Source of the DNA: Psammoneis japonica
Lineage: Eukaryota
Reading direction: 5' to 3'
Length of the DNA: 64,000 bases
Assembly (NCBI GenBank): GCA_008632985.1
Contig: QPGO01000006.1
Span: forward strand, 1 to 64,000
A program made the position numbers and the translations under genes. The notes beneath the pieces are model-generated. The model was not told where the DNA came from. It searched no databases and saw only the letters and a list, made by a program, of their open reading frames with translations. Below are positions 21,271 to 64,000 of this stretch, piece after piece (position 1 is the first letter of the stretch; every line of letters begins with the position of its first letter).

Positions 21271-22639
21271 CTGAGAACATGTTTGTCCCATTTGTCCAAC
21301 CTGCTGGATGCCAGTCAAGTCACAAAACAGAGCAGGGGTGCCAAACCAGTTCTTCTGTCATCCTGAAGCTGGCTTTGCTTTGTTTTCATTGGCGGCATCA
21401 TGTTCCCCAGCTGGTTGTCATGCGCCCAAGAGCCACCAAGCACTCTGACTGGAGCTCTCATGTCGTCCAACATCAGCGCATTTGATGGAAGAACAACAAG
21501 CAGCAAATCACTGGATGCGTCATTTGACAACCTGCAAGTGCCTCCAACTTGATTGAACACTGTTGAAAGGAACCTGACTCTTTTTGCCAGCAGCTGCAAA
21601 TGACGTGAACACTGGCTTGTCTGAGACACCCAAGACTGCAGCTGTGCCATGAGTGTTGCCAGCCTTCAGTTGACTGTGTTTGGCTTCAACATTTTTCTTG
21701 GCACAGTGCCCACATGCTTTGAGAAATGATTTGTTGTCAATTTTTAAGAACTTGGAAAGTTCTGGCTTGTGACATGTGACACAAGCCAGAACAATTTTCC
21801 AGGGATGAAGCCCTCCAGCACTCGTTCAATTTCATTGGGTCATTCAACAAAGGAGCCGATGGTGGCAAGTGCCTCTGCTGGTGAGGTCTGCGATGAAAAA
21901 TGATTGTTGCAGTCTGTGGCACACTTTCAAGGGCATGCCAAATTAATCTTGTGTGCAGCTGGGCACAAAAAGTGCAAAGCCATGCTGCTCTGCAAAACGC
22001 GTGCTTCATTTTGTGCAAAACACCCTGTTTGGCTCACCACCCCACATTCAATGCAAAATCCACCCAACTGTGTGCAGCAGGCATTTGTTGTGCGCTCGTT
22101 GGTCATGGCTGGGGGTGGCAGATCAACAATCAAAACCAGAAAGAACCCGGAAGTGAACATTTGCTGTGAGTGCACACGATTTGACTGCACAAACAGAAAA
22201 GAAAACTGCTTGACCCGACTGCTGTCAGAAGTGCCATGACAACCCAAGCCAAGGCTTGTCACTGGGGTGTTCTGCAAAACAGGGGTCGTGCTTTGCATGT
22301 TTCATCAATCCAGGGTGAAAGCAGGGTGAGGGGAGCCGCCCAATGCATGAGATCAATTCGGCATTTTGCCGCAGTGCAACTGCAGCTGCTTTCAGAAAAA
22401 ACAACCTGCCCTGCTTTGCCCCCCACAGCTCAATGCCAAGGATCATTTCTTTTGCTCTCTTGTCATGTGGTCTGTTTTCCATTTGTTGACTTGTGCAAGA
22501 CTGACAGTCATCAACATCAAGAAAGCAGCAGGAAAGGGTCCAAAGTTGATGCCATTGTGGTGCTGACATTTTTCTTGATTCACCCGCTGCACAAGTTGTT
22601 GCCCAACCAACGTGTTGACGAAGCCATTGATTGAATCAC

Positions 22640-22980
22640 AAGCGCCCAAACATGTTCATTGAAAACATTCAGAATTTGTGCTTCATGACTCAACTTGCGC
22701 TGAAGAACACTTTTGGGTGTTTTGCAAAAGTGGGTCAATGCAAACATGAGCTGCTCAAGAAAAAGTGAGCTCTCATCTTGCGGCGCCATTTGATGAAAAC
22801 AGACCCAATGAATGTTCAGAAATGCAGATGAGGGTGCATGCACAAGACATCTCAACATTTGAGGGTCTCTGCTTTTTTGCTGTTGAAAATTGTGCCACAG
22901 GTTCGGGCCACACACTTTGCTCAAAAATGGGCATTTTTGTGTGTGTGTGTGTGCAAACCTGAGTCTGGACCAAGTTGGAC
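22640..22980 (-). repeat. Dispersed repeat, homologous in inverted orientation to about 35100-35470
   Basis: Shared blocks aaaaatgccc.ttttt, gcacaattttcaacag.caaaa and tgagagct..tttt..tgagca. Confidence 0.6.
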
Positions 22981-25442: not shown

Positions 25443-25444
25443 GC

Positions 25445-25620
25445 TTTTGATGAGCTTTCAAGCAAGCAAAGGCATGGCACACCTCATCCAGGTGTCCCTC
25501 ACATGGCAGTGCTGGGCCAGAAGACATGGGCAAGATGGCAACAAAGATGTCCATGCATCTGAGCTCAACTGCACAAAGGAGCACCCTGCCAACAAACATG
25601 GGTGGCACCTTGCCAGATCA
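25445..25620 (-). mobile_element. Ty1/copia (diatom CoDi-like) RT-RNase H linker remnant
   Basis: CAVELRCMDIFVAILPMSSGPALPCEGHLDEVCHAFACLKAH matches the recalled copia pattern WAVELGRIDI...MSS..ALPREGHL..VYHIFAYLK. Confidence 0.75.
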
Positions 25621-26349
25621 AAGCAGCTGCATTTCCTGCTCAACCTCAGACACAACCACATCATGATTTGCTCACTCAGGTCCAAGAGCAATGAGGAAAT
25701 GGCTGTTGAGCTTTCCAACATTGTCTGTGGATGATTCAAAGTCATGAAGAAATGTGTGTCAAGAATGCAGTTGGTGCAGAAACCCCATTTGACAAGCCAA
25801 AGTGCCGCTGACATTGGATGCAATGAGGCCAGCAGTGGGGTTGAAATCATCCAAAAATGTTTCTCAAAGGCTGCAACATGCCAAATGGGCTGTCAGCACG
25901 TTTGCCATTTTCCCAGGTTGTGCTAGAGCTGTCGCACATTTCCTTGATGCAACAACGCTGTCTTTCATGAAAAACCAGCCAGTTTTCTTGAAACAAGCCA
26001 TTCTCTTTGGCGGCTTCAAAGAGGTTTTCTGCTCCAGCGCCAAACACCAAAAATGCACAACAGCTCAATCAAACTGCAGTGCAAGTGCACAGTTCTGTCA
26101 GAGCAAAGTGTTTTCATGGGGACCAAGGGCAAAGTCTTTTTGAGAGAATGCAGCCTCTCCAAATGCACATTGTGGGCATGTGTGGGTGTTGTTGGCAGAG
26201 CAAACCAAGAGTGTTTTGAGCTCTTGTTTCTTTCCACCACAAGAATGGTTGGCTCTGAACATCTGAACAAGCCCAACAACATGTGCTGCTGGGTCCACAA
26301 CAAAGACAACATTGACTTGCCTGACAACAAATGAGCATCAGCGTCATCT

Positions 26350-27148
26350 TCTGAAACTTTTTCTGAAAGTTGGCATGCCAAGTTTTGCCCCAAAATTGGC
26401 ATGCAAAGTTTTGGTCAAGATTGGCCTGCCAAGTTTCCCCTCAAAGTTGGCAAAGTTGGCATGCCAGGTTTGCTCCAAAGTTGAAGCACCAAGTTTTGCA
26501 CCAAAGTTGGCATGTCATGTTTTGCCCTGAAGTTGACATGCCAAGTTTTGCCCCAAAGCTGGCAAGCCAAGTTTTGCTGCAATTTGGCATGCCAAGTTTT
26601 GTCCCAAAGTTGGCATGCTTTGGCATGCCAAGTTTGCTCCAAAGTTGATGTGCCAAGTTTTGTGCCAAAGTTGGCAGGCCAAGTTTTGCTCAAGATTGGC
26701 ATGCTGAGCTTGCCCCCAAAGTTGGCGTGCCAGGATTTGCTCCAAAGTTGGCATGCCAAGTTTCTCCCCAAAGTTGGTGTGTGAGTTTTGCTCCAAAGTT
26801 GGCAGCACCAATTTGTGCCAAAGTTGGCATGCCAAGTTTTGCTCCAAAGTTGGTGCACCAAGTTTCCCCCAAAAGTTGGTGTGCCAAGTTTTGCTCCAAA
26901 GTTGGTGTGCTGTGTTTTGCCCCAAAGTTGGTGTGCCAAGTTTTGCGCCAAAGTTGGTGCTCCAGCTTCTTTTTCCTCAAAGGCGGCACACCACATTTTG
27001 TGCTCCAATGTTGGTGCACCGAGTTTTGACCCCAAGTTGGCATGCCATGTTTTGCCCCAAGTTGGCATGCCAAGCTTTGCTCCCAAGTCTGCACACCAAG
27101 TTTTGTGCTGCAGCTGGCATTCCAAGTTTTGCTCCAAAGTTGGCATGA
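26350..27148. repeat. Satellite, ~25-bp near-palindromic unit CCAAAGTTGGCATGCCAAGTTTTGC
   Basis: About 30 tandem units; the core AAAGTTGGCATGCCAAGTTT is almost its own reverse complement. Confidence 0.95.
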
Positions 27149-28439
27149 CATGGGATCCTTTGCAAGCCTATTGTTGTGGTTGCAACCTTCTCAGTGGAGT
27201 GGCCCAAAAAGGAAATTCATCTGGCTGACCATCTTTTTTGATGAAGTTGTGCCACAATCAGAAAGAGGCTTTCACAGTTTCAAGGTCAAGAGCTTGTGCC
27301 CACCAGCGGCTGCACTTGTTTTGTCAACCTTTTGGTTGCAGCATCTTTTGCAGCCCACAACCTTTGGTGGTGACAGCAGCTGCTCTCCCCTTCATTCATG
27401 TCTGTTGCAGGCTTGGTTGCTCAACAAGCCATGAGGCATCTGCAGCAAAGACCAAACAAAAGCAGAGCTGTGCATTGTTGGCAAAAATGTGGAGATTTGA
27501 ATGGCCATGCTTGTTCTTCCAACTGGCATTCCTCATGTGCAGAATGAAGTGGGTTGTTTAAGTCACTCTTTTGTTGCACAGCCACAAATGATGCAAACCA
27601 CAAGGCATCTTGAGCGAGGCCAAGGCAAAAGCAAAGCTGCACATCGTGGCAAACAACACATGGCAGATTGAGCAGTCATGCTTGCTCTTTCCTTTCACCT
27701 CTTTTGTGTGCAGTTGTGCAGTGGGTCATTTTCCTTCTCATGCAATGTGGCCACAAATGCAACCACCAGGGCTCCAAGCAATGGCCAGGGCAAAAATGGA
27801 GCTGCGCATGAGCAACGTCAATGTGGCTGATTTAATGGCAAAGTTTTTTTCCCTGCTCTTGCGCAAGGGGCCACATGGATGTCCATGGGACCAAAAGCAC
27901 ACCTGGCTAAAAAGGTTGATGCATGTTGCCGCACAATCCACTCAACCCCCCCTGAGCCCTTTCAGGTGTTCCAAGGTTTGTCCCAAAGCTTGCCTTGGTT
28001 GCTTGCAGTGGCTGCGGGTTGCCCAGAAAATGTCAGCAGAAATGTGCACGCACAAAACATGCAACAGATGACACAAAAAACAACCGCATCACATGCTGGC
28101 ACTGCAAGGTCCCACCTGGGACTGAAAAGCCTTGTTGCCAATGGCCGTTGGCATGAGAGACAACCTTCAAAAACTCTTCCTTTCTCAGCCACCTCAGTCA
28201 TCAGGGAGCCTCTTCCTCTTGTGGTCTGCTGCAATGACGGAACAGCACTCAGCCACAGTCTTGGTGCTGTTGAGCTTTGTGTGAGATGAGCAGTGGTCAG
28301 AAGATGATTGGGCTTGCATGTTGCACGCAAAACACACAGAAGCAAGATGAGTGCTTGTTGCTGCCCTTGTTTTTGGCCACTGCATTGAGAGACACCACGA
28401 AGGCCTTGGGGTGCTCAGCAGCCCGAGACCAAAGTGCTT

Positions 28440-29639
28440 GACTTTCCTTGGGGAGGCACGTCACTTCACTGGCAAGGAAAGCAGCAATGGCTGTTTTGGC
28501 TTGGTGGTTCTTGGAGCACATGACTGACCCCCCTGTTGTGGCAGCACTGCAGCACAGATTGAGCTCCCAGATTTGCCATGAACTCCTTCCCATTGTCTGC
28601 ATGGCTGGCCAGGGGGCAGCTGATCAAAGAGCAAAAGTGACAGAGCTCCTTGATCTCATGTGTGCAGCAATCTTTCAAAACCACTTTGAGCCACTTCATT
28701 GCCAGGGAGCTGGGGTCCTCTGGGCAGAGTTGGCAATGGCCTTTTTGTCAACCCACCAAGAGTCAATCTGGAAATCGTCCTGGAAACTGTGGCTCGTGAT
28801 GGGGGCTCAAGCCCCTCAAACTCTCACCACACAGATGTCTCTGTGTCTTGCTGCAATTGGGGCAAAGGCCAATGAAGTGAGAAACCAGCATCTCTGCAAC
28901 AGTGCAAAATTTCTTCCTAACTTGAGATGGCTTCACACCCCCGTGCCCATGGTGCTCCGCCACAGCATCAAAAGAAAACTGCTCAATGTGGACAACAACA
29001 AGCACCGACATCAAAGATCAATCCTCTCACCTTTCTTGATCCAGAAAAGCACATCATGGAAGAGGTTGTGGGTCTCCACCCAGCAACTCTGCTGTCAGGT
29101 GTGAGCTTGGTTGCCAAAAATTTGCAAAACTCCTTGGTGCTGAGCCCATCAGCACCCGCATGCCAGATCTTGATTGTGCAAACCTTCGTCTCTCACTCGG
29201 ATTGAAGCACAAGCTTGGGCCTTGTCCCAATCACAGCACTGTTGCAGCCATTGTCCATGACGCCAAACACAGCATTGTCAAAGGCCTCTCATTGATTTGT
29301 CTCCATTTGAAGATGCTCCTGACCTTGTCAGGAGAAGTTGCGACAGTGGTGTTGGAGTGGGAGGGAGGGACTCCTCTTGGCCAACAAAGTCAACAGAATG
29401 ACAGCAAGAGAGGAACAGCAAAAAGGCAAGAGAGGCAGATGGCCAAGGGTGCCATGTCTTGAGCCAGTCATCAATTCTTGAGAATCCGGTCACTGACAGA
29501 AGAAGGAACTCTTGCGAACCTGTGTGAGGCGGATTCCAGAAAATCCATGATTCACAAGAAATGGAATTTTGGAACCATTTTCACAAGATTCCATGCCGGG
29601 ATTCTCAAGAATCGCGGATTCACAAGAATCGTCGTAACA
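28440..29639 (-). mobile_element. Ginger/GIN-type (KRBA2/SCAND3-like) integrase transposon remnant with a putative terminus
   Basis: H2C2 zinc finger FDAVAEHHGHGG...LVSHFIGLCPNC and rve core LISCPLASHADNGKEF. Terminus reads TGTTACGAC on the minus strand at 29639, with ATTC[A/T]CAAGA sub-terminal repeats. Confidence 0.7.
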
Positions 29640-29921: not shown

Positions 29922-30974
29922 CTAACCCTTTCTTGACTGTTGAATAGTTTGTTTCGCTTCCTTTTCAGCTTGTGTTAATAGTTTTCCTTCTGCGAGTTTT
30001 TCCTTTCGTTCACTGTATCGATCCGTCAGGTCATCCGAAACCGGTGCCATGACGGCCGTAAACTTTGCAAATTCCTCTGCACAATCCACTACTCGGTTCC
30101 TAAAGTCACTGTCCTTCATTCGACCATCGTCCTCAAATTCCTTCCATGCTTTGGCCACGGAGCTTTGATTGGTACAACACGGCATTCTCATCCATCGTGC
30201 CAAGATACGCAAGGCATTGACTGCGTTAAACGACTGACTACCACCATTGACTTGCGCCACAAGGCACGTCTTGCCTTGGGTGGGTCGGACCGAGCCCGTG
30301 TTGAGCGGGATCCAATCAATCTGGTTTTTAAACACGCCCGTAATGGTCCCGTGCATTTCAGGACTGACCCATACATGACCATCCGACCAATGAGTCAGCG
30401 CTCTCAGTTCTTGGACCTTGGCATTCTCTTCCAACGACGGATCGCGTACCGGTAGGCCTCTTGGATTGTACACTCGCACGTCACACCCCAATGTTTCCAG
30501 CAAACGAGCGAATTCATACGCCAACTTGCGTGAGAAGGATGTAGGACGGAGAGAGCCATATAAAATCAGCAGCTTCGGTGCACGTCCAATGGGCATGTCG
30601 TGATAATTGCACTTTGTAATTGCGTCAGCAACCTCGTCTCGTATCCAACATGGCGAGTCTTCCAGATAAGCAGCTTGGTGTGCTAACCAACCACCGACAT
30701 GAGAGACAGCATCAGACTCGGTCGAATATCCCGGATGATCAAGACTGGCGAAAGCTTCCTTGTCGTCTCCAGACCACAGATTTGCATCCACCAATGTTTC
30801 GATCTTCTTTTCGTCGTCCGACATGATTGTGTTTTTCTGTCTGTGCGTTGAGGAGGCGTAGTATGAAAATTTAGTGGACGATCTTGTGGCTGCAGCAAAA
30901 GGCGCGTAAGTTGCGGTGTAGGCAACACGAATAGAGGATAATGCAATCGTCCAACGGCTTGCTAGCTTGTGCAT
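29922..30974 (-). CDS. arsH: Arsenical resistance protein ArsH (NADPH-dependent FMN reductase) with N-terminal extension
   Basis: [79 protein letters not shown] and DRYSERKE. Confidence 0.95.
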
Positions 30975-31142
30975 CGCATTGCAAAGCGGCGAGCTCCTGT
31001 TTTTATTGTGCTTCCATCGTTGGTCGTCGGAGGATCAAAAAATCGTCGAAATCGCGGCGGCATATTTGCGCATGCGCCACGTCATCAAAGTGAGAAACAT
31101 GATGACGTCATCTCCGGGTGCTGTTTTGGCCCAACACCAACT

Positions 31143-34819: not shown

Positions 34820-36760
34820 CCACCCTTAAAACAGAATGTTGTGATGTGAGGTGTGCGATTGAGGATGATTCAAACCACACTGGACACCACCTCCTTGCTC
34901 TGCCGCATTCGAGCAAACAAGCTTCATTGATTGGTGGTGTCTCCTGCACTCTCTGTTGTTGGCCAAAAACCACAAGCAGCGATGTGCCAAGCACCTGGAA
35001 CAGAGCAATCACAACTCAGCTGGCCCTTGCCATTTGCAAGTTTTTCTGACTCATCAGCAAAACAATGAGTCCCGGTCCTGCACATCTTGTTTTTCACTTG
35101 ATCCCAACTTTGACTTGCTCCACAGACACTTGGGTGTGCACACGCATGAAAAATGCCCCTTTTTTTGCACACAAAACATGTGGTCCAACATTTCAGCACA
35201 ATTTTCAACAGTCAAAACACAACAATTTCCAAATGCACTGTTGTGAACATGTGCAGAAAGGTCTCATGCATGTGAAACTGAGGGTGGACAAAGTCATTGT
35301 GTGGCAGCTGAATTGTGCATGTCAATGTGAGAGCTTGGTTTTCCGATGAGCAATTTGCTTGTGGCCACACTCACATGCAAACAAAAATGCAAAATAATTT
35401 TTTTGCACACAAATCAACTCTTCAATGATGCCAAATGAAGTTTTGTTAGAATGCACAAACACAGGTTGCTCTCAACAGAGCAAGCAAAACACACGCAGAT
35501 GAACAAGATGTGAAAAGAAATGAAGCTCATTTCTCACACAATGAATTTTGGACCATCTTTCATGTTTTGTCTGCACAAATGACTGAAACACTTGCATCAG
35601 CTGATGATGTGAAGAACAAACACATGGCAATGGAAAAAATGTTTGCCCTTGGAGGCTGGCCATGAGCAAAATGAGAGGACCAGTCATGATTGTTGGCGAC
35701 AGATTTGTCTTCTTGTGCTGTGCTGCACTGCCTGTGACAAGCACTTTCATCACTGCCATCAATGACTCAGACTGCCCAAAACCACACGGTTGAAAAAAGC
35801 AGGCTGTCATGGTCACTGAAAGCCACCGCCATTTTGGCTGTTGGTTTGCTTGGATTTCATCTGTTCATTTTGCTCTCGCAAGCTGCTGGTGCACCCATGA
35901 AACATTTTTGTGTGTGTGAAGAGGGGGACACCTGCACACCACCCAAGTCTGGAACAAGTCCTTTGTTCTCATGAATGCTCAGCAGGTTGGTTGTTTTGGC
36001 TGTCACAGGCAAACCCTGCATTTGTCTGCAGCCTTTAAAATTGTTTTTGTTGGCTCAAATGGAAAGACACATCTTCTGCCCTGTTCAACATGATGCTGCA
36101 AATTGAGTCTGCCACAACTGAATCTGCTCCCAACAGCCACAACAATCCTTGTGAGGTGTTCCATCATCCAAGTCAATGCTGGTTGCATGTTTTTGAGTGG
36201 AAACATCACAGATTTGAACAACCTGACTCATCATTGTGATCCATTGCCCATTGTGGATCATGCTGCATGACACAAGTGGTTGCTGTGGAGCATCTGATGT
36301 TCAACATCGCCCCAACAGCACATGACAATTGGGGCAGCTTCTGCGACAGGGGTTCATTGTTCAACACTGCAAACGACAAAGAACGCGTGCTGGAGGGCAA
36401 GCTTCAAAGCACGGCCTGTGTGCTGCTGTCCACGACATCAATTCATCTCATTTCCAAAAATGCCGAGCACTTGCAATTCACAACATCGGGAATCCGAGTC
36501 CTGGATGAGCCATCTTTCCGATGCTGTGGGTTGTGGAGCAATGACTTGGCCCTCTGTGTGCACAAGCTTTCTGTGCCAGAAGTCCTCGTCAGCATTGCTC
36601 TCATTCTGCTTGACGGCATTGTGCGACACCAGCAGTCCTTTTGGCCAAAACAAGGCACAGAAAGAATGCATGGCAATGACACCAAAGACAAAAGGAAGAA
36701 GCAAGGTGCAAAGAATGATGACACATGTCCGAAGGGATTGTGCTAAGGGCTGGCATGAGC
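34820..36760. mobile_element. Degenerate TpA-depleted repeat block
   Basis: Near absence of TA; shares a dispersed repeat with 22640-22980. No family identified. Confidence 0.55.
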
Positions 36761-51641: not shown

Positions 51642-54600
51642 GCCCTTGAAAACACGTATTGTTTCGGACCTCAGGTTTGCCTACGGCACTGGCCATGATC
51701 TCCAGTGTGGCAAGCTCAGTACTTCGTCAAAAGCAGAAACGATGGCAGCCAGTACTGGTTGCACAAACGACACCGTAACAATGCAAAGGCCGACCAGAAC
51801 CAAAAAGCTAGCGCAGCGTGTCTGAAAGATACGTGCGATGAGTGTCTTACTTGGGCCTACAAAGAACGTGAACTAACAGCAGAAGAGAAGAAACAAATCA
51901 GCAAGCAATCGAACGCACGAACAGCAATCACACCTGCAAGGACTAGGAACCTACGATACCTTTGTAAATGCCCTGGATTGCTGGAAGGCGCTGGGCAGAT
52001 CAGTGCTGCCTCTCTTACCAAGCCGAAAAAATACTCCTTTCATTGCCGCTGGCTGGAATCGTCTCAAGAACGGATCAACGTCCTGACTCGAATGATGAAT
52101 AATTTTCGGTTTGCTGTCCGGGTTGGCAGTAAGACACCCCAAGCTGCGGTTGTGCAGAGGCTACTATACCTTGCCCAGCTGCAAGTGCTGCACATGTGTA
52201 CATTATTCACTCCTACCGACATTGAGTAGTGCGGAAGCGTGGGCAATTTCCGAAACCGGACAAACCAACAGATCCGCTCCGTTAGAAGCTGTTCTCTGCG
52301 GCTCCGACGGGAATACTTCATCCCGAAGCTACGGCGGAGGTACTTGTTGATAAAGATGGCGAATAATCCATAAATTTTGAGGCCATTGTTTGGAACAACA
52401 CAGGGCACTCTCTCTCCACATTGTGGTGCACTCTCTGACCCAGACCTCGCCGCACACATCTCATGCAGCATGAGGAGTCACTGTCGTGAAAGTCGCCAAA
52501 GCAAATGCAACCCAACTGTCAAACGACGTTTACATCGACTGTAAGAGCATTCCCAATTACACTCATGCGATGCTGCATGATAAGGTGAACAACGTATGAT
52601 AAGTACCAAAAGGTGAGAGAGGCATCAGAGCAACAGAGACAACAAAATTCTGAAACATCGTAAGAATATTGCAAAAGACTAGTGACAACGCGTTGATCAG
52701 TCTTCCACAGATTGTGGACGAACCAGAGCACCAACTGACACAGCTGTAACAAATGCAGACAATGTGAATAAGAGAGACAATATATTAGTGACTTACCCTG
52801 TGCAAAGGCCTCGCGACAACGCTCCAAGAAGTGTTTCGCAACATCTTGTGTTTGTTGCTGCTTGCTGCATCAAGATTGTGCTGGTGTGTTGTTTTTTCTC
52901 GCGGATGTGAAACAGTCGCGCACTTTCACTCTGCGCGTCGTCGCGCGTCAAAGCAACAATGCATCGATCGTCGCTTTCACACACCTTTTTTGTGGTCACA
53001 GTCACACACTTTTCTTTTTGCAAGGATCGCAAAAACAGATGAATTCTAGCTGGAGAGATGCCACCTGGTGCACTGCTGCTGCTGCTGCTGCTTTTTCCTT
53101 TCTCTGAGTTGTTTTCAATCAAACAAGAGCCAAACACGTGCCTTGAGCTGCGACCCCCCCTTTGTTTGGGCAAAACTGCCAAGCCATGGAAAATGCAGCT
53201 GTCCAAGATTGTGGTGTCCAGCACATTGGTTGGTGCGAGGCCAGCAACACCACCATGATTTTTTGCTCCTCCAGCTCCGGGCCAGCTCCAGGTGGCACCT
53301 CGTGCTGTGTGCTGCGCGGCTGCAACAGCCATGAGAGCATTTTTTTCAGCGCGCCACAGGATGGAAAAAAAGAGCAACAAGGTGATTTTAACATCTTGCA
53401 CAAACCCGGCAAATGACAACACATCATTGGAGCTCTCATGGCTTGAGGCTGCTTTGCAGTCAATGGTCCAATGCAGTCAGCCTCAACACACAAAGCTCCC
53501 ACCACAAATTGTGCTCAATGAGGAGCGTCGTTTTGTGCATCGCCTGGGGCTGGAGCGCATCTCCAGCAAGCTCACAACAAACAAGAACAGGCTGCTCTGT
53601 TCATTCTGCAAGCTTGTCTCCCAACATTGTGCCATTTGCCACAAAAGAGCTCTCAAGCACACATGTCTTGCTCATGTTTGCAAACAGCTGGTGCACAAAG
53701 AAATGTGATGCAAGTGTTCTTGCCAGCACTCTCTTTTTCATTCTTGTCATTGCTCCCACCCAGACTGGCATCTTGTTTGTCAAAACATTTGACAGCAGCA
53801 CCCGTGCACTTTCCTGTCATGGAATTGAGGGAGAAAATCATCTGGCCCAACATGCTTTGTCAACAACATGCACAAATCTTTGGGAAAGCTCCCTCCTTTT
53901 GTGCCACTGCTTGTTTCGCTCACTTCAAAAGGGGATGGGTTCCAGCCACATGTGAACAAAAACATGCACAAAAATGGCACTTGCCCAATTTTTGCATGGT
54001 CTCCAACTTGCAAATGAGAGCTTTCACTTCCAAAAGTGTGGATTTGTCTAAATTTCAATGTTGGCAATGTCATTGTTTTGGTGCAATCAATGTTCTTTGT
54101 TGTGCTGGCAAATGAGCTGCAACACAAAAGGTGATTTTTGCCAAAATTTTTGAAGATTCACACACCATTGTTGCTGTTTGAAGGTTGACTCAAAATGTTT
54201 CTGCGTGCATTTCACAGGAGTGATCTGCTTGAACAAAATTCTCTGCAGCATGAGTGCCGATGCACAGTTAGAATTGTTTTCACTGAAAACTTTTGTGACA
54301 CATGTTCCTCCATGAAGACTTGAGCACCAATGAAAAAGTTGCTTGAATGTGTGTGCTCGAATCAAGTGCCAAAGCCAGAGCGCACAATCATTCTCAACAA
54401 ACAGCCTCAGTGCACAAAGCTTGCACAAATTGTGCTCAAAAGGGAGCATCATTTTTGTGTGTCACCTGGGGCTGGAGCATGTCCCAGGCTTTGGCACTTT
54501 GACATCATCTCCACAAATTGCGGGTGGTCCAACTCTCCTCTTGCTGTGCAGCGAGCAGAAATGCCTGGCTGCCTGGAGAAGATGTTGTCAAGAATCAAAA

Positions 54601-55984
54601 CAGCAGCAATGTTGGTGGTGTTTTGGATTGGCGGCAGTGATGATTGACTTGATTGGCTGGAAACTGGTTGCACAAGATTGTTGCCTGGGGTCGTGGTGGT
54701 GGTGCAAAGATTGTTCAAGAGGACAGAGATGAGATTCCATGAGAAGTTGCTTGTGCCCTTGCTGGCATTGACACTCCAGGCCAGCTGACCTTCTTGACTT
54801 CTCCATCTGACCCCATTCTCAACAACCGAGCACTGCACCATGTGGCGGATCAAATGAAAAAGAGCACGCCCTCTTTTGTGAAAACGCAGCAAATTTGTGT
54901 GTCAACCCAAGTGTTGCAGGATTTGTGTCAATCCAAGCATTTCAGCATTTTTCAATGGATGTTGCATTCATTGCCCAGTGCAAGGGGCAAAAGTGATTTT
55001 GCTTTTCTTGGCCACCATTCTCTTTTTCTTCCTTGCTGTGCTCTTTTGTCGTTGTTGATGCCAGATTGTTCTTGTGCAGATGAAGAATAAAAGTGAATGA
55101 AAGCAAAGTTACAGACCACCTGTCCATCTCCAATCTCCTCCCACCAACTCAACCAGAAGTGACCAACAAGTTGAGTTCGAGTGAGTCACTTGCTTTGGTT
55201 GCTGGAATGTGTCATGGTCCCATTCCACAGTTTCTCCTCAAAAAGATTTTTGACATTTGCGGTGCCACAGTTCTTTTTCAGGAAAGCATCGAAATCAATG
55301 GATTCTGCACCCTTTGAATGTCCTTCCATTGCAAGAACAAAGCATTGAGACACCAGACTCTCCAGCAAAATGTTCCTTTGCCAACCGCGCATGATCTCCT
55401 CTCTCCAGCTTTGAAGCATTCTCTGTGACAAATCCAGTTACCCTGTTCCAAGCGACAGTTCGCAGGTGAGACACCACTTCTTCCATTGCTTCAATTTGCT
55501 GAGACACCACGGGGAAGTCCACATTCTTTTCATCGTCCAGCTTCTCGTTCAGGCAGGCCATGTGCAGTTGTTTGAGGACCGGCTAAATGCGCAGTGCACA
55601 TTTTTGAGTTTTTGGGTCTCATTTTGCGCTGAATGCGCAAAAATGCGCTGCTGTGTAGAAACATGCCAGGATTCTACGTGGCGTCACACCTGAACGTTGC
55701 AACACACTCGTGATGAGCTTGCAACTGCAACAGAAGTGATTGGCCCTCTCTAGAGACAAGAAGTGACAGTCACATCACAAAACTCACTGTCACATGCATT
55801 TGCAGCTGTCACCCACTCAAGCAAGTGACAGTGCTTGCTGTTCAGTCGTTCAAACATGCAGATCTCAAGAATGTCGCGTGGGATCTCAGTCACGGTTGTG
55901 AAGCTCGCGGCAGTGCGCAGACAGTGCGCACAGGGTTGGAGGGAGGCTGTGACGTCATCTGTCAGTGCTGCATCTACGCAGAGT

Positions 55985-58210
55985 GCACCACCCCTGTGGC
56001 AGGGGGAGCTGTGTGTGTGTGTGTGGTTGTGCGCGCACGGCTTCGCCGTGTGTTGAGTTTTAATGTCAATGTCCACATGCATGTGCACATTCCACAAGCA
56101 AAAATTCCTGTTCCACAGCTCCCCCAAAACTCCAACCACCAAAAACCGAGGGGTTGGAAGTGCACTTTCGGGAGCTCTTTTTCTCCGCACAAAAAACACG
56201 CATTTCGTCGACTCGACCATGATGATGCCTCATGGTTCTTCCCCATCGCCTTCCCAGGATGCCGATCCTGCTGACACCGTTGCCAACAACACTGGCACAA
56301 CAGGCAATGTCATCATTCCGGTTCTCGTGGGTGTGACACGTGCAAAATGAGATGCCACAAACTCACACTGTTGTTTGCATGCTCCACCGCCTCCCACAGA
56401 CACTGTCACGAATTCCAACACCGCACCTGCGTTTCGCCCCCCTGGCATGCCCGATGCTGTTGCTCCTGCCCTTGCTGCCACAGGTGCTGTTGATGCTGTC
56501 ATTGCATTTTGCCAATGACGTCCACAATGAAATGCCAATGACTCACACTTCTTTCATTCTCGCCCCACCGCCTCCCACAGATGCTGTCACGAATTCCAAT
56601 GCCGCACCTGCGTTTCGGCCCCCTGGCATGCCCGACACTGTTGCTCCTGCTCTCACTGCCGCAGGTGCTGTTGATGCTGTTGTTGTCTTTTGCCAATGAT
56701 GTCCACAACGAAGTGCTTGTAGCTCACACTTCTTTCATTCTCACCCCACCGCCTCCCACAGATGCCATCACGAATTCCAATGCCGCACCTGCGTTTCGGC
56801 CCCCTGGCATGCCTGACACTGTCAATCCCACCCTTGCTGCTGCAGTTGCTGTTGACACTGTTGTTGTTTTTGCTTTGGAAGGAACACAATGGATGACGGA
56901 TGACGGCGGACCAGGAAACCCATGCAACCACGGCCTGCTGATGGACGACACATCAATGGACATGAATGGCGCCTCTTGGTTGGCTCTCGAGTGCAGTCTA
57001 ATCTTTAGAATGTACAGACACATCACGCAGCTCTCTGCAAATTAGAAACCTGACAACAATTGGATGGCAGGCATGCTTTCACAGTTTTTTAGTTTCAAGT
57101 TGGAGAGGTCAGCGAATTGGCATTTGTTTGCAGGCGACTTGGCAAGGTTTCAAATGGTGCATGTGACTTGGACACTGCTCCATTTTCCAGGACCAGGTCA
57201 TCATGTGCAACTCCACAAGAGGCCACTCTCGCCGTTTGAATTCTACATGTGATGCACAACATGCTGTTTTTGCATGTTGCTAAAATGGAGGCAGGCAGCA
57301 ACGTGCTTTTGGCAAATGCTCACTGTGTTTGTCGCTGTTAGACCTTCACAACCAGTGCCTTGTTGACAGCCATGCTGCCACTTTGCATGCCGGCACCTTC
57401 TCTGCCCATGTTCCATCAGCTGCGTCCTCCTTCACATGTTGCTGCGGTTCATCTTGACACTTGTTGTTGGCTCCGATTGGCTCCGCTGGGCTCTGGGTGA
57501 GTCTCAATCACCTCCAGACAGACAAGGTTCTGCTTGGGAACAATCATCCTGAGAAAGGTTGTCACCATGCCTCCTGTCATAGATGCTCCTCTGCCATGCC
57601 CACTGAACCTTGACGTCGGTTTGTTGCTTTTGTTTTTTGACCTGGTTTCAGAGCTGCACCCCAGACCGTTTGAGAGAAGGCTCATCAGCACCTTCCACAA
57701 CACGGCGATGCGAACGAGAATCCAGTTTCTCCGGGGACGCAATGACAGGAGCAGACCAATCACGGTGCTGTGTTTGTGTTTCAGGCACAGGATCCGGCGA
57801 ACAGAAGACCAAATCCTCCGGATGGCAAATCGGCTGTGTTTGGGTGACGACAGCGGGTGCAACAGCACCGGCCATTGCAGGAGGGACTGCCGCATCAGAT
57901 GTGGCAGGCGGGGATGCGTCAGGTGGTGTGGGGGACGAAGAACGGGAGGTCGTCATGGTCGAGTCAACGAAACGCGTGTTTTTTGTGCGGAGAAAAAGAG
58001 CTCCCAAAAGTGCGCTTCCGACCCCTCGGTTTTTGGTGGTTGGAGTTTTAGGGGAGAATGTGGTTCAGGATTTTTCCTGCTGCCATCAGCATTTGTGCAC
58101 AAATGCACAAACAAATGTGAGGACATTTGCACAAAAATGTGATGAACAAGACACAAACTGCCACGCAACCATGACATCACCATGTTCTCCCCTGCCACAG
58201 GGGTGAGAAT
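55985..58210. repeat. Inverted repeat pair (about 55985-56230 and 57950-58210)
   Basis: cccc[ct]aaaactccaaccaccaaaaaccgagggg...ggagctctttttctccgcacaaaaaacacg...gactcgaccatga and cacccctgtggcagggg present in opposite orientations. Confidence 0.88.
56340..56875 (+). repeat. Tandem repeat, 3 x 181 bp
   Basis: ccaccgcctcccacaga starts at 56384, 56565 and 56746; copies differ mainly by CA<->TG. Confidence 0.9.
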
Positions 58211-59269
58211 GCACGCAGCCAGTTTCAGCGCACAAATGGAGTGGCGTGCTTTCAAAAATTCGGCGCGCATGCCTGATCTGCACAAAATGCACGCACGTAA
58301 AAATGCACTACAAAATTCGTAGAGATGTTCATTTGAATTCACTTCACACACAAACATCACGGCAACGACACCGCGACATCGGCGGTGGACGCACACAACA
58401 ACGACAGCAGACTGGGGGGTTGTGATGCACTGAGACAACAACTGACATGATGAGAAATGAGGTGTCAATGTCAAATGACAATGATCGAGTTGTTTTGGGA
58501 GCTGGTTGAGCCATTGGTGACGAAGGGTTTTTGGCACGTGCAACTTGGCACTGAAATCACGCAGAGGTTTTGGCCACGGTGGGGCTGTTGTTTTTCACTT
58601 TTTTTGGGGTGCATTTTGTGTTTTCTCGGTCGATCGCATTGATGAAGCACTGAAGTGAGCACGCGACAACAGATTTTGACGAAAAGTTGGATTTTCATTC
58701 ATCACAGAGGATTGGCGCAGGGTTTTTAACACGGTGAAGCACGGGGGGACGATTTTTTCACCAGATTTGCAAGATCCTGCATCCCACCCAATTCGCGCGT
58801 AATGTCAGTGGATTGATGTATTTTTTACACGCAAGAAGCGCAACAACGTCGACACACCCGACATGACAGACTTCCCTGCTGTTGTCGTAATGAGTGAAAT
58901 CTTGTTGTGTTCGGTGCGTAGAGTCTAGTGCCATTTGTCCGCATGTAGACGAGTGCTGCGCACCGCACTTTTGGAAAGTGCGCCACTCCATGAGCGCAAA
59001 ACCGGGTTTCGACGAGCGCATTTAGCCGGTTGCAGTTTCATCGTGGGACCCCACAAATGCGGAGGGACCCGCAACCCGGAAATGTGTAGAGTTCTACGTG
59101 AATGCACGGGGACTGTTCACGCAGGTTTTGTGCCAGAGCTGTCTCGCGAACTGGGCGTTTTTTCGGATTTTTGTCGTAGAAACTGCACCAGTTTTGCGTG
59201 TGTAGGCTACATGTTTCAGCACCACATACAAAAATTCGCGTAGAGCTCTACAGGAGGGTCCCCTCCGTA

Positions 59270-60219
59270 TTTGTGGGGTCTCACGATGAAGTTGTTTCGT
59301 TGAGCATTCAATCACGCTGCTTCGAATGCTGTGGAGTGAGCGACACCAATCCGTCTTGAGCTTGACTCGTCGTCCTCCAGCCAATCGAAGGACATGGCCC
59401 TCGATGTTTTCTTGGGCGCGGATGCTCTGTTCATCCAATGAAGCTGCATCCAATCAAGGAACCCAAGCCTCCGCAATGCGAGGATGTTTGTCTACGTCGA
59501 GCTCGTAAAGGTCCAGACACTTGCCACCTTGATTGCTGCGTGTGCTCAACACCACTAGCGCTGGTTTGTTGCAGGCAAGCACCACTTGGTTTGGGGGTGA
59601 GACCCACTCGAGATTGACGGCACAACCATCCAGAGTGAGTTGCAAGAGTTCGTTGTAGAGCTCCGGTTGTTGCTTTAGCCACTCGTTGGCGTCTTTGGCT
59701 TGGTTGGGACCCGACAAGCCCAGACTTTGACGTGATTTTAGCCGAAGTTGCTGATCACCACGAATGGTGGCACGCAGGTAGGAAGACATGAGAGACCCAC
59801 CCGCTTTCTCTTCTATCCAGATGACCTTCGACAGGTTGAGGTTGGCCGTCATGGGATTCTCGGCCTCGGCATTCGAGAGCACCAGGACGTTGGAACTCGG
59901 TGCAGTGGGGAGCATGGCGGCAGCTAAATGTGCGGTGCGTTGTGTCCTGAAGTCGGCTGTCTTGGAAGTAGAAAGGATTCACACCTTGCTGCTTCGACGT
60001 ACATAGTTCCATGAGATTATGATAGAGACGCGTCCATTCAGAAACATCTCCAGCATCACAATGTGAAGCGCTAGTAGCATCTATGGGGAACACCGCCGTG
60101 GAAGTTCGTTGCGCAGAACGAGCAGCGACAGTTCGCTGCGAACGACGAGCAGAGAATGCCCTCGTCAAGAATGAAGTAGTCAAAGGCAGCAACACCGCAA
60201 AGAGACATAAAGGTGCCAT
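59270..60219 (-). pseudogene. rnl1: T4 RNA ligase 1 (Rnl1)-family gene with signal/transit-peptide-like N-terminus, inactivated
   Basis: LYHNLMELC, PGALECRG, ENPMT, EKAGGSLMSSYL (motif I KxDGS), NLEWVSPPNQVVLAC and ENIEGHV...KLKTDWCRSLHS are collinear with T4 Rnl1 as recalled. Deletion/frameshift near 59865, TGA at 59454-59456, truncated near 59270. Confidence 0.88.
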
Positions 60220-60879
60220 CGTAATCTACTCTGGAACAGCGTCGCTCTTAAAGTGTATGTTGTTGTTATGCTTGGGATCTCGTATCTAAGGGAAATCAAA
60301 ACGTGTCGAGAAGTGACCGTTTCCAGGGAAGGGAAACACGACGACTCTGGAGCGAGGCAAGCCGCAATGGGATGCTTGTAGCGGCCGCATCCTTCCTTTT
60401 TCACGTCTGTCAAATAAAGTAATCATTGGAATAATATCAAAGCCTCACAGTAGGCACGTCGAGACATGTATCGTACCGGTAGTCTGCAGAAGCAAGGTAG
60501 TTGGGTAGGACGTCTGCGGTTTGGGAGATAGCGATAGATGTTAGCAATTTTTTTCTTTTCTCAGCCATCATCGGCTTGACTTTCTTATTGTTAACATCGT
60601 ACACGGAAGGCATTATTGAGACGTTTATCGTGAAAGTAGTCACCGAAATTTTCCTGCTGGATTTCATCATCATAGAGCAACTACAACATAATGTTTCGGG
60701 CCTTTCCATCGAGACGGAGGTACATTCCTCTTTAGCTATATATCATCGTGACCATAACCCTACTATAGGATGATTCCGTTTCCATTCATTGCGTAACTTT
60801 CTTCTTACCCGAAGGCATCCATAGGAAGTAAGCAAGTGGATGAAGCCCTCCTGATTCGGTATATAATTTGGGCTCCATT

Positions 60880-62229
60880 CTAGCTGATGTCCTTTTCGGG
60901 AAATGTAGACTCTGAAACAAGCAACGCAGAGGCCTCTGTTGAGTGCAGTTCTTCCCTAGGAAGATCAACAACATTAACTACTGCAATGCCATTGTGTCCC
61001 GACAAAACTCTTCTGGCCGGTGCTTCGAACCATTGCGAAACGGCCAGCGACGCCATAATTGTGGCAATCCACTGAAAGGGTGCGTGCCACCAAGGAAGAC
61101 GGAATGTGAGACTGTAGTCTGACAATACGATATGCCAGTCTCCCATGAGAAATATCTTGACCGCCGCAGTATAATAGGCTAGTACCACAATGTGGAGACA
61201 ATACAAAACCAAGGAGAGCTGACCAAGCACCAGCAACGCCCGAGTAGACAAGATTTGTCGCGTCCAGCAAGTCCGGGCCGTGCCGTTGTCTGAAGAATCA
61301 TCGGCAAGCACCATGGAAGCTAGCCAAAGCGCATGTGCAGGAAACAAAATGGCTTCCAAAGCAATGGAGACATTGGTTCTTACCGATGAACCACAATAGT
61401 GTTGCACAATGGGTGCTTGGACGGCCGTCATGAGTAGCACCACAGATAGGGCATCCGTAAGAATGGCCCATTGCGAAGCCGATCCAATAGATGCTGTCGT
61501 TTCCCGCCGTTTCCGCTCAACCCATTCTCCCAAAAAGACACCGGCGAATATGTGAGGCAACCGACTCAAGCAGTGTACATGCCACACGAGCCAACCCATT
61601 TCGCGTTCAGCTTTAGGTATGGTAAACACGAGCGTCCAGAGTCCACCACTAAACAACCAAAAAGTAGCCATCCCGATCATCAGGGATCCATCGGTCCACT
61701 GTCGAATACGTTGCGACAGGACCGGAAAGCATGCATACCCGTAAAGGAATACAGCCACTTGCCACAGGACTCCACCCACATCAATAAGCGAAATAAACCA
61801 TCCTTGCAGGAAAAGAGCACACCCAGTAAAGGACCGCCATGCCGCAGCCTTGTCGGGTTGCTTGCATAGGACGAGGAGAATGGACAAATTCAATACCAGA
61901 GTCAAAAAGTATGTCGGAAAGAGCCGAGCGCAGCGTTTTCTCCAAAACAACCTGACGTTTGCCCAGGAATCCAATTTACTCGCATACAAGCGAGCCAAGG
62001 GAAGACCTGACAATATAAAGAACAGGGAAACCGCCTGGAGGTACTCGAATCCAACATTAACATCAAGAAACAAATCAGTTTGATGGCCGAGGAAAATTGC
62101 CATGGCGCAAACACCACGAAGGCCATTCAGTGGAACCATGTCGCGTAGCTGCGCGTTTCTGTCATGGGTTCCATGGTCATTCTGAGTGTTTTCAATGCGT
62201 TGCGAGAAAGCTTTCTTTGTCTCTGTCAT
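60880..62229 (-). CDS. Acyltransferase-3 (OafA/YrhL-like) membrane O-acyltransferase
   Basis: LNGLRGVCAMAIFLGH, AVSLFFILSG, FWRKRCARLFPTY, LGQLSLVLYCLH and WFEAP; many TM helices. Confidence 0.88.
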   Translation of the reverse strand: MTETKKAFSQRIENTQNDHGTHDRNAQLRDMVPLNGLRGVCAMAIFLGHQTDLFLDVNVGFEYLQAVSLFFILSGLPLARLYASKLDSWANVRLFWRKRCARLFPTYFLTLVLNLSILLVLCKQPDKAAAWRSFTGCALFLQGWFISLIDVGGVLWQVAVFLYGYACFPVLSQRIRQWTDGSLMIGMATFWLFSGGLWTLVFTIPKAEREMGWLVWHVHCLSRLPHIFAGVFLGEWVERKRRETTASIGSASQWAILTDALSVVLLMTAVQAPIVQHYCGSSVRTNVSIALEAILFPAHALWLASMVLADDSSDNGTARTCWTRQILSTRALLVLGQLSLVLYCLHIVVLAYYTAAVKIFLMGDWHIVLSDYSLTFRLPWWHAPFQWIATIMASLAVSQWFEAPARRVLSGHNGIAVVNVVDLPREELHSTEASALLVSESTFPEKDIS

Positions 62230-62439
62230 ATGATAATGCTAAAGCTATGCACAAAGGAAATACACAACAGACCACAAACACGCCATTGTCAGCCAACGAG
62301 CAACGAGGCAGCAACAGGCCGCAGAACGACACTGAGATTTAGTCGTGAATGACGTCATTCTCATTCGTTTGTTGAAAGTTCCAATCGGATTTGCCACTCT
62401 TGGGATTCTACTGGGTAGTTTCCCTAACCACTAAACAGC

Positions 62440-64000
62440 CGCTTACACTTCACGCTTCACTTTGCCACCGACAGCGCACTGTCTCCCGACCTTTGCCACG
62501 TCTGAAATTCTCCCTTGCATTTGCCACTGGTGTCAATGTCGCCACAATTTTGCAGGCACCTGCTGCGATGAGATCGTGGATGTGTCAAAAATTGCGCGCA
62601 CCACACCACCGTCGTTTGACAGACACAACAATGGCACACCTGCCTGACAGAGCTTGGAAGCTGGAAGTGAAGGAGACAGTGGTTTTTGTCTGTGTTTTCA
62701 AGAGGGGATGCACCCAACTGGTTGGACTGTGAAATGTTGAAAAGGTGCATCAGCTGCAACCGTGGCATGAATTGCCAGAGCATGATCTCTGTTTTTTGAT
62801 GCTCTTGGGGGCACATCTCACAGAGACATGGCCCTCTCTTGAGGTGGAGGACACAGTGCAACAAATCAGGGTTGGCATCACCACCATGAGTCGGGCAAAC
62901 CAAAATGACATGTGCAGCAGGAAGACAGATTTCTGCTGGGTGAGTGAAGGATGGGCACACTCAATGTTTGAATTGAAGAGCAAGTGTGCATCATCATCAG
63001 TGCTCTGCTTCAAAAAATTTAAAACAATGACAATGCATGCCAGATTCATAAAATTTCTGAAGGGGTGATGCAGAAAACTGCTGCATCCAGCACAATGCTG
63101 TTGGGCACATCTGTGCATGATTGCACCTGGCACCACTGTGATCACAATGCACCGCATCAACAAAAAAGCCTCGCTTCTCCAGAAAAAACAGCAAAATGCA
63201 AACCCTTGGCCATGATGCAGCTGGGGTTGAACCAACGAGCAAACCAAACATTCCAAAGCCCCACAAGTGATGAGGTGAGCAACAGTGTTCACAACACTCG
63301 GGCACCTTGCTCTGAACTCACTGGCTTTGTGACAGGCAGTGAAATGAGCAAGCACCACACAGGGAGAGTGCCAGAGATGGGGATGGATCCACCGATGTCA
63401 ATGGCAGTGCAAGAAATGAGCGGGGGTTGGTTGCACAACAAATGGGACTCTGACCTCCTCAGCCATTGATGAAGAAGCAGACAGAACAAGTGACAAACAA
63501 AAGAAAGAATGATGAGTGACAGGGAACATCATGCTTTTCCATGTCAGCACAAGTTTCTCAGCCAACAACAAGGCCATGGCAGGCCGGTGCAGCTGACCCA
63601 GCAGATTTCAATGAACCGGGACCCAAGTGCCAGTGTGCAGGTTGAACCTTCATGGAAAATTCAGGTGTTGTCCACATGATTCCAGCAAGCCCCAGCCAAA
63701 TTGCCCCCACCTGTGATGCACAGGAGTGTGATGAGCACCTGCTTCTTGCTGTGTCTCCCAAAAAATTCCAGACACACAATTGAAATGACCATCCAGAAAA
63801 GGCTGGTGCCATCAAAGTGGGAGGTTGCAGCATTTTGATGCGTGAGAATTTTTTTGACACAAAAATGAGGGACATTTTGACCCAAATGGTTGTGTGAAGA
63901 CATTTGCGCTGTTGCAGATTTGAGTGAGGAGACCAGGACAAGTTTCTCACAGTTGGGTGTCTCTTGTTGTGTCTGTGTGTGGAGAAGTGCATTTGTGTTT
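62440..64000. mobile_element. Start of another degenerate TpA/CpG-depleted repeat block, running off the window
   Basis: Composition only; no family recognised. Confidence 0.5.

What the first reader, a model, noticed from the sequence alone, without database searches (positions are those of the whole stretch)
59270..60219. Phage T4-type RNA ligase 1 homologue with an apparent organelle-targeting presequence
Collinear similarity to T4 gp63/Rnl1 over most of the adenylyltransferase domain (NLMELC, ALECRG, ENP, KxxGSL, EGYV...KIKSDWY equivalents). It is preceded by a hydrophobic signal peptide, an SF/AF junction and an Arg/Ser/Ala-rich stretch, resembling a diatom bipartite plastid-targeting sequence. 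Rnl1 is known for tRNA repair in phages and some viruses. A targeted eukaryotic version would imply horizontally acquired organellar RNA repair (inference). This copy is dead, so an intact paralogue or allele may exist elsewhere.
Basis: partly seen in the sequence, partly recalled or inferred. Interest (0 to 1): 0.72.

Follow-up and report, generated by a model that had tools for sequence, protein, structure and literature searches.

The report
Dead plastid-addressed phage RNA ligase
A diatom-like genome holds the broken remains of a phage-type RNA-joining enzyme gene that carries a chloroplast address label, a hint that such a borrowed enzyme once worked in the plastid, but no intact copy with that label was found.

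Summary
It is a T4 Rnl1 homologue (TIGR02308 E 1.5e-28, PDB T4 Rnl1 E 1.9e-19; Pfam misses it). It runs from ATG 60219 to about 55186. It is broken by a roughly 86-nt frameshifting deletion that removes the Lys75 motif, a TGA, a 3.7-kb hAT-like insertion with a nested MITE, and TpA-type decay (6 of 8 conserved Tyr read Cys/His). Short-read contigs share the deletion and the stop. The 62-residue extension has all scorable features of a diatom plastid presequence: Phe at +1, ASAFind transit score 4.6-4.8, and a rule passed by 21 of 2,208 ATG starts, 14 of them light-harvesting genes. SignalP was not run. The genome's one intact stand-alone Rnl1 has no presequence and a separate origin (AU p 1e-5). 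Three further copies are more decayed. Best reading: a fossil of a once plastid-targeted, phage-derived ligase. Function was never shown. The scan had noted the TpA decay and a fused Rnl1 enzyme elsewhere in this genome, but not this gene.

The parts
60172..60219 (-). Signal-peptide-like segment, residues 1-16; first cleavage candidate TTS|F, second candidate TRA|F after residue 21
   Evidence: 8-residue hydropathy 3.3, no charge; ASAFind cleavage-site score 5.68 and 7.37; SignalP not run
60034..60171 (-). Transit-peptide-like stretch (residues 17-45: 6 Arg, 0 Asp/Glu, 8 Ser/Thr, 6 Ala) and linker to the ligase
   Evidence: ASAFind transit score 4.79 or 4.62; own light-harvesting proteins 4.33-5.99
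59866..60033 (-). Rnl1 N-terminal sub-domain up to the Arg54 equivalent (NLMELC ... ALECR)
   Evidence: TIGR02308 E 1.2e-6; 2c5u_A 4-55
59859..59870 (-). Junction of a frameshifting deletion of about 86 nt that removed the segment holding the Lys75-Phe-Phe-Asn motif
   Evidence: Copy 2 at C8:64.9-65.0 kb has 87 nt here; short-read contigs show no gap against the window
59290..59864 (-). Nucleotidyltransferase core, motifs I to V; the motif I Asp reads Gly
   Evidence: 2c5u_A 82-257 E 1.9e-19; column check
59454..59456 (-). In-frame TGA
59038..59289 (.). 252-bp MITE-like element with 30-bp terminal inverted repeats and a 4-bp duplication (AGTT), sitting inside the right-hand target duplication of the larger element
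   Evidence: read depth up to about 3,800 against 57 on the gene
55573..59032 (.). hAT-like non-autonomous element, enlarged by nested repeats, that splits the gene; target duplication CAGTTGTT
   Evidence: Left end has 35 matches in the genome; 8-bp duplications flank 3 of 5 other copies read, the other 2 showed no right end; copy 2 has the empty site
55186..55572 (-). Displaced Rnl1 C-terminal domain, with one more frameshift near 55376
   Evidence: Own Rnl1 profile, columns 277-355, E 4e-7 among 2,616 ORFs; next piece columns 346-383, E 2.4; DNA collinear with copy 2; Pfam and PHROGs give no Rnl1 hit
60880..62226 (-). Upstream neighbour: intact intronless Acyl_transf_3 gene; fragments of it travel with the decayed Rnl1 copies
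   Evidence: PF01757 E 3.4e-21
63587..64000 (-). 3' flank of decayed copy 2, which lies just outside the window at G000:C8:64018-65037

Best explanation
The locus is a pseudogene of a phage-derived, stand-alone T4-type RNA ligase 1 that had gained a diatom bipartite presequence and was once imported into the plastid stroma. Shown: Rnl1 ancestry of all three domains, the in-frame extension, the lesions, and their partial order. The gene and part of its neighbour were duplicated while the ligase frame still held the Lys75 segment and had no insertion. The window copy then lost about 86 nt, gained a stop, was split by an hAT-like element, and decayed by TpA to TpG/CpA changes that are strongest beside the insertion. 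Inferred: the fusion was expressed and imported. By analogy with T4 Rnl1 it sealed 3'-OH/5'-phosphate breaks in plastid RNA, most likely tRNA anticodon loops, after some other enzyme healed the ends. It is now inactive.
For: The extension is stop-free, in frame, and starts at the only ATG before residue 70, which lies inside the first ligase helix. ASAFind matrix (PMC4329603 Table S2): Phe at +1 and transit score 4.79 or 4.62 against a cut-off of 2. A signal-plus-Phe-plus-transit rule passes 21 of 2,208 ATG starts in own-genome DNA: 14 light-harvesting starts, this gene, and 6 others; 216 of 20,000 shuffles of the same residues pass. 26 of 33 near-invariant columns covered by the two main pieces are kept, including the catalytic Lys. 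Copy 2 keeps the deleted segment and the empty insertion site. 6 of 8 conserved-Tyr columns read Cys or His, against 0 of the same 8 in the intact C150 paralogue. TpA observed/expected: 0.53 presequence, 0.65 N-domain, 0.26 core, 0.04 C-domain. Precedent for a plastid-targeted RNA ligase: the chloroplast isoform of plant tRNA ligase (PMC5789856, passages).
Against: No intact homologue with a presequence: 0 of 373 proteins, and 1 of 164 locus ORFs, that one an unconvincing Cys(+1) hit upstream of a normal start. No relative above about 48% identity; word-based searches with the window piece found none. All sister copies lack the 5' end, so selection on the presequence cannot be tested. SignalP was not run. 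My rule was written after seeing the sequence and passes only 7 of 15 curated light-harvesting starts. An ACG at codon 63 lies where some phage homologues start. No end-healing kinase with a plastid presequence was recognised among 18 AAA_33 matches (22 of 78 candidates scored), and the fused RNA-repair enzyme has no signal peptide.
Confidence: 0.58

Rival explanations
1. The presequence is genuine but the fusion never worked: a phage-type ligase sequence landed in frame behind the first exon of a host plastid-protein gene and decayed without ever being selected.
For: No intact targeted homologue anywhere searched; no healing partner recognised; diatoms hold several independent untargeted Rnl1 genes, so raw material is at hand.
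Against: No donor of the extension is found in the genome by DNA or protein search and no remnant of another host protein was recognised next to it. The ligase is far from every sampled relative and has host-like GC3 (0.53 against 0.50-0.54), which fits long residence but is blurred by the TpA decay.
Confidence: 0.2
2. The signal peptide is real but the protein went to the ER, the periplastid space or outside the cell rather than the stroma.
For: The site lacks the Ala-Pro of the canonical ASAFAP motif and the first candidate scores 5.68, below the 7.15-9.39 of own light-harvesting proteins.
Against: Both candidate cleavage sites have Phe at +1, and the following stretch is basic, hydroxyl-rich and free of acids, which PMC4329603 (passages) gives as the stromal-import signature.
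Confidence: 0.1
3. The extension is a chance open frame. The ligase began at a start codon, now decayed, at the edge of the domain and was cytosolic or nuclear like the other diatom Rnl1 proteins.
For: ACG at codon 63; TA-poor DNA has few stops; 6 of about 2,190 ATG starts other than light-harvesting genes and this gene pass the rule; both diatom-labelled homologues and the C150 paralogue lack an extension.
Against: The pass rate of at most 0.3% must be combined with a stop-free run of 62 codons in the right frame; this stretch is only mildly TA-depleted (0.53).
Confidence: 0.1
4. The broken frame is an assembly error or the locus is phage contamination.
For: Closest named relatives are T4-like phage genes.
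Against: A short-read contig spans 59265-62500 with 9 substitutions and no gap, joining the gene to the acyltransferase. Host transposons and host-type TpA decay mark it. Neighbours are ordinary eukaryotic genes.
Confidence: 0.02

Closest known systems
Bacteriophage T4 RNA ligase 1 (Rnl1/gp63; PDB 2c5u, 5tt6; TIGR02308, phrog_562)
   Same: Collinear N-terminal sub-domain, nucleotidyltransferase core and, weakly, C-terminal domain; Arg54 and Lys99 equivalents kept.
   Different: Nuclear gene of a eukaryote; 62-residue targeting-like extension; Lys75 segment deleted, motif I Asp changed, stop, frameshifts and insertion; no kinase-phosphatase partner beside it.
Stand-alone Rnl1 proteins labelled as diatom in EukProt (Entomoneis paludosa P0387, same 90% cluster as P0142; Helicotheca tamesis P0355) and the intact paralogue G000:C150
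   Same: Same family, same domain content, diatom or diatom-like host.
   Different: None has a presequence; the extra length of P0387 is an internal duplication. C150 nests in a separate clade of unnamed phage-like proteins (100/100) and is rejected as sister (p 1e-5); grouping with the Entomoneis clade is neither found nor rejected (p 0.22).
Chloroplast isoform of plant tRNA ligase
   Same: An RNA ligase with an N-terminal transit peptide for plastid import (PMC5789856, passages).
   Different: A trifunctional ligase-kinase-phosphodiesterase of another lineage (PMC6379707, passages), native to plants, with a primary-plastid transit peptide.
TpA hypermutation of foreign DNA in Bigelowiella natans (bioRxiv 10.64898/2026.01.13.699255)
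   Same: TpA to TpG/CpA signature (parts 1-2 of 5 of the text read).
   Different: There it was measured as new mutations in integrated viral regions. Here it is inferred from composition and codons, centred on transposons, with CpG loss as well.

Membership tests
T4 Rnl1 (RnlA) family | Profile match to the family over the adenylyltransferase domain | tested here: met
   TIGR02308 E 1.5e-28 and 1.2e-6, under the whole-protein cut-off; phrog_562 E 1.2e-32; Pfam PF09511 no hit
T4 Rnl1 (RnlA) family | N-terminal sub-domain with Arg54 and Lys75, both essential in T4 (PMC6379707, passage) | tested here: not met
   Arg54 equivalent present; the segment with Lys75-Phe76 is deleted
T4 Rnl1 (RnlA) family | Motif I KxDG | tested here: not met
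   Lys kept; Asp, 100% conserved in 351 homologues, reads Gly
T4 Rnl1 (RnlA) family | Core motifs with Glu (NxE), EG and KxK (motif names recalled) | tested here: met
   columns 622, 857-858, 907-909
T4 Rnl1 (RnlA) family | C-terminal helical domain | tested here: inconclusive
   Own profile E 4e-7 and DNA collinearity; PF20819, phrog_562 and TIGR02308 give no hit
T4 Rnl1 (RnlA) family | Intact reading frame and RNA-joining activity | tested here: not met
   Deletion, TGA, insertion and second frameshift; activity itself not testable
Diatom bipartite plastid presequence (ASAFAP type) | ER-type signal peptide called by SignalP | not testable with these tools
   Surrogate only: uncharged hydrophobic core 3.3 and small residues at -3/-1
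Diatom bipartite plastid presequence (ASAFAP type) | Phe, Trp, Tyr or Leu at +1 and transit score above 2 | tested here: met
   Phe at both candidate sites; 4.79 and 4.62; Phe alone contributes 3.25
Diatom bipartite plastid presequence (ASAFAP type) | Transit part rich in hydroxylated residues, net positive, few acids | tested here: met
   Residues 17-45: 8 Ser/Thr, 6 Arg, 0 Asp/Glu
Diatom bipartite plastid presequence (ASAFAP type) | Import into the plastid in vivo | not testable with these tools
   needs a GFP fusion
hAT-type DNA transposon (the 3.5-kb insertion) | Short terminal inverted repeats and 8-bp target duplication (hAT trait recalled) | tested here: met
hAT-type DNA transposon (the 3.5-kb insertion) | Link to an hAT transposase | not tested
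   no autonomous partner was looked for

The most novel reading that the evidence does not exclude
A diatom lineage took up a phage RNA ligase 1, addressed it to the plastid and used it for plastid tRNA or RNA repair, and sister species still carry it intact. It is one of several independent Rnl1 acquisitions in diatoms: this gene, C150, the Entomoneis clade and the Helicotheca protein. This would be a phage-derived RNA repair activity inside a secondary plastid.
Probability: 0.3. Interest if true: 0.75.

Novelty: new variant of a known kind. Interest (0 to 1): 0.44.

Why it matters
If the presequence worked, a phage anti-defence enzyme was retargeted to a secondary plastid, which would point to an unrecognised need to mend broken RNA there. 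The locus also shows that stand-alone T4-type Rnl1 genes entered diatoms more than once, with one intact copy in this genome ready to assay. It gives a partly ordered case of a foreign gene being duplicated, split by a transposon and eroded by TpA hypermutation. The limit is that the targeted form is known only as a fossil.

Tried and rejected
Pfam scans of all window pieces: no Rnl1 hit. Word-based protein search with frame B among longer proteins: 918 candidates, none significant; weak evidence. Pattern scans with frame B: 97 metagenome and 2 viral stretches matched, none a relative. Alignment-based scans gave 80 of 187 metagenome loci, 80 of 126 viral loci and 7 prokaryote loci; none is close to the window gene. 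P0387 looked like a presequence-bearing diatom homologue by length (461 aa) but has an internal duplication. P0143 and P0213 have long acidic, low-complexity extensions without a hydrophobic core. Sequencing runs: no RNA holder listed; run X3 laid nothing. ESM Atlas: no usable hit for the N-terminal piece; the core hits PF09511 clusters, which is no evidence on taxa. An intron that would mend the frameshift was rejected because sequence is missing, not extra. A mitochondrial presequence was judged unlikely (hydrophobic start, helical moment 0.35). The first quick tree put the gene near eukaryote-like sequences (SH-aLRT 90); the careful tree of 30 rows did not. No structure or complex prediction was run.

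Full report
Observation. The minus strand carries an ATG at 60219 with an in-frame stop three codons upstream. Frame A gives a 62-residue extension and then NLMELC to ALECRG. Frame B, from 59864, gives ENP, KAGGSL, NLEW, EGHV and KLKTDWC, with a TGA at 59454-59456. Pfam finds nothing in the window pieces. PHROGs phrog_562 hits frame B at E 1.2e-32 and frame A at 2.7e-4. TIGR02308 hits them at 1.5e-28 and 1.2e-6. T4 Rnl1 chain 2c5u_A aligns over residues 82-257 (E 1.9e-19) and 4-55 (E 4.4e-4). The chain is numbered one above T4, so T4 residues from about 56 to 79 have no counterpart. The host is diatom-like by inference: 82 light-harvesting matches with ASAFAP-type starts and ordinary eukaryotic neighbours.

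The gene is longer than reported. DNA at 55228-55573 matches what follows the ligase in a second copy just outside the window. A profile built from 251 fetched homologues hits 55298-55582 at columns 277-355 (E 4e-7 among 2,616 ORFs) and the next piece weakly at columns 346-383 (E 2.4). Library profiles do not recognise these pieces. The intervening 3.7 kb begins with a repeat that has 35 matches in the genome. In 3 of 5 other copies read, that element is about 480 bp with terminal inverted repeats and 8-bp target duplications; the other 2 showed no right end in the stretch held. An 8-bp duplication is an hAT trait (recalled). In the window the duplication is CAGTTGTT at 55565-55572; its right-hand copy is interrupted by a 252-bp MITE-like element at 59038-59289.

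The lesions are real. One contig of run X1 covers 59265-62500 with 9 substitutions and no gap; one of run X2 covers 59692-60991 with 5 and no gap. The three runs are one sample, possibly the source of the assembly, so this excludes an assembly error but says nothing about the population. Copy 2 (G000:C8:64018-65037) has 87 nt where the window has none, and an empty site at the insertion. The deleted segment holds the Lys-Phe-Phe-Asn motif, whose Lys is 100% conserved in 351 homologues; Lys75 is essential in T4 Rnl1 (PMC6379707, passages). The motif I Asp reads Gly, and a second frameshift lies near 55376. The product cannot be an active ligase.

Decay. TpA observed/expected is 0.53 in the extension, 0.65 in the N-domain, 0.26 in the core and 0.04 in the C-domain, against 0.58 in the acyltransferase and 0.44 in the intact paralogue. 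Six of 8 conserved-Tyr columns in the two main pieces read Cys or His; the intact paralogue has Tyr at 7 of the same 8 and Pro at one. Of the 9 differences to the X1 contig, 3 are TA/CA and 2 are CG/TG. This matches the TpA to TpG/CpA process reported in Bigelowiella natans (bioRxiv 10.64898/2026.01.13.699255, parts 1-2 of 5 read). I saw the depletion; the paper came from an earlier scan note.

Other copies. Searches of the genome give three more decayed copies (C8:64 kb, C58, C8:162 kb). Copy 2 is a tandem duplicate that also holds bits of the acyltransferase and lacks the ligase 5' end. The two dispersed copies share a further deletion and so derive from copy 2 (inference). The family search scored 6 candidates and kept 4: the window gene, an intact 370-residue stand-alone Rnl1 on C150, and two copies of a 1,080-codon fused repair enzyme on C86 and C126. 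The DNA of the 5' end is single-copy. C150 has both Pfam domains, is 50-53% identical to unnamed proteins, lies between host genes behind a copia element, and has no signal peptide upstream. The fused enzyme has none either.

The presequence. Residues 1-16 are uncharged and hydrophobic and end TTS|F, like the genome's own light-harvesting starts (TTA|F, TSA|F). Residues 17-45 hold 6 Arg, no acid, 8 Ser/Thr and 6 Ala. With the published ASAFind matrix (PMC4329603, passages and Table S2) the sites after residues 16 and 21 score 5.68 and 7.37 for cleavage and 4.79 and 4.62 for transit. Fifteen curated light-harvesting starts (of 30 loci fetched; the rest had introns or unclear starts) score 7.15-9.39 and 4.33-5.99. 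The cut-off is 2, and Phe alone gives 3.25, so that test is lenient. The SignalP step could not be run. A stricter rule of my own, written after seeing the sequence, passes 7 of those 15. It passes 21 of 2,208 stop-free ATG starts in the window and 37 own-genome loci: 14 light-harvesting starts, this gene, 4 copies of one repeat frame, one other gene start with a convincing presequence, and one unexplained. Of 20,000 shuffles of the gene's own first 50 residues, 216 pass. The next in-frame Met is residue 70, inside the first ligase helix; an ACG at codon 63 is a possible decayed start. No donor of the extension is found in the genome.

Relatives. A full-library search with the core gave 235 hits, the best listed at up to 48% identity. 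Two homologues carry diatom labels in EukProt, from Entomoneis paludosa and Helicotheca tamesis; neither has an extension. Among 373 fetched proteins and 164 locus ORFs whose N-domain aligns, none of the proteins and one ORF shows a signal-like start, and that one has Cys at +1 upstream of a normal start. In a 30-row tree (rows chosen by me: top hits and eukaryote-looking sequences) the gene is a long branch beside unnamed P0129 (93/89, unstarred). C150 nests in another clade at 100/100, and the two diatom-labelled proteins fall apart from each other and from both. A clade of the gene with C150 is rejected (p-AU 1.1e-5); one with the Entomoneis group is not (p-AU 0.22). The donor cannot be named; the nearest named genes are from T4-like phages at about 44%. 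Giant viruses were not tested separately.

Mechanism. Shown: ancestry, anatomy, lesions and part of their order. Inferred: expression, plastid import and substrate. T4 Rnl1 joins 3'-OH and 5'-phosphate ends, and its C-domain directs it to broken tRNA anticodon loops (PMC6379707, passages). An intact ancestor with that domain would most likely have done the same in the stroma, given a healing enzyme. None was recognised among 18 AAA_33 matches, from 22 of 78 candidates scored. I give 0.58 to a once-functional plastid enzyme, 0.2 to a genuine presequence in a never-working fusion, 0.1 to another secretory destination and 0.1 to a chance frame.

Literature. Full-text searches for RNA ligase/Rnl1/diatom, T4 RNA ligase/diatom/horizontal transfer/phage, T4 Rnl1/eukaryote/chloroplast/RNA repair and diatom/RNA ligase/plastid/RNA repair/kinase gave no paper. 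A looser search gave 179; the 15 listed do not contain Rnl1 (listing only). The library lacks most subscription papers, and bioRxiv supplements were not seen. A plastid-targeted RNA ligase is known in plants from another family.

Verdict. A real and unusual fossil: a phage-type Rnl1 with a credible diatom plastid presequence, dead in both alleles seen, with no intact targeted relative found. New variant of a known kind; interest 0.44.

Noticed in passing
G000:C150:52566-53678 (L008 4067-5179, minus strand): Intact 370-residue stand-alone T4-type Rnl1 between host genes, just behind a copia LTR element, with a possible 5' untranslated intron; a separate acquisition and the best candidate for an assay.
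   Followed up: partly
P0387/P0142 and P0355 (EukProt labels Entomoneis paludosa, Helicotheca tamesis): Stand-alone Rnl1 proteins in diatom transcriptomes fall in different parts of the tree; P0123 of the Entomoneis clade sits on a 1.7-Mb contig. Repeated uptake by diatoms is suggested; contamination of the transcriptomes was not excluded.
   Followed up: partly
window 60880-62226: Intronless Acyl_transf_3 gene, single intact copy in the genome, directly upstream of the ligase; may itself be of foreign origin.
   Followed up: no
G000:C8:63587-68067, C58:350021-353285, C8:162-165 kb, C8:176-178 kb: A composite repeat carries ligase and acyltransferase fragments and an unidentified frame whose ATG start passes the presequence rule in 4 copies; no Pfam hit.
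   Followed up: partly
L007 2870-3022 and 7172-7324 (C58): The composite repeat is flanked by a 153-bp direct repeat that copies the His-rich 3' end of the neighbouring cyclophilin-like gene.
   Followed up: no
window 5000-10000, 20000-29500, 35000-36500, 53000-58700, 62500-64000: Sharp tracts with almost no TA and, in most, little CG, alternating with normal gene-bearing DNA.
   Followed up: partly
window 56338-56923: Three tandem 181-bp repeats inside the insertion, with 126-bp inverted repeats at 56119-56244 and 57931-58056 marking another nested element.
   Followed up: no
window 23000-26000: Strongly A-skewed tract (AT skew about 0.6) with no TA, whose reading frames look repetitive.
   Followed up: no
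window 29922-31034 (minus strand): Open frame that reads like an ArsH-type NADPH-dependent FMN reductase with a possible N-terminal extension (resemblance recalled, not tested).
   Followed up: no
G000:C86:439-3678 and C126: Two near-identical copies of a 1,080-codon fused RNA-repair enzyme with an Rnl1-like ligase; no signal peptide at the start.
   Followed up: partly
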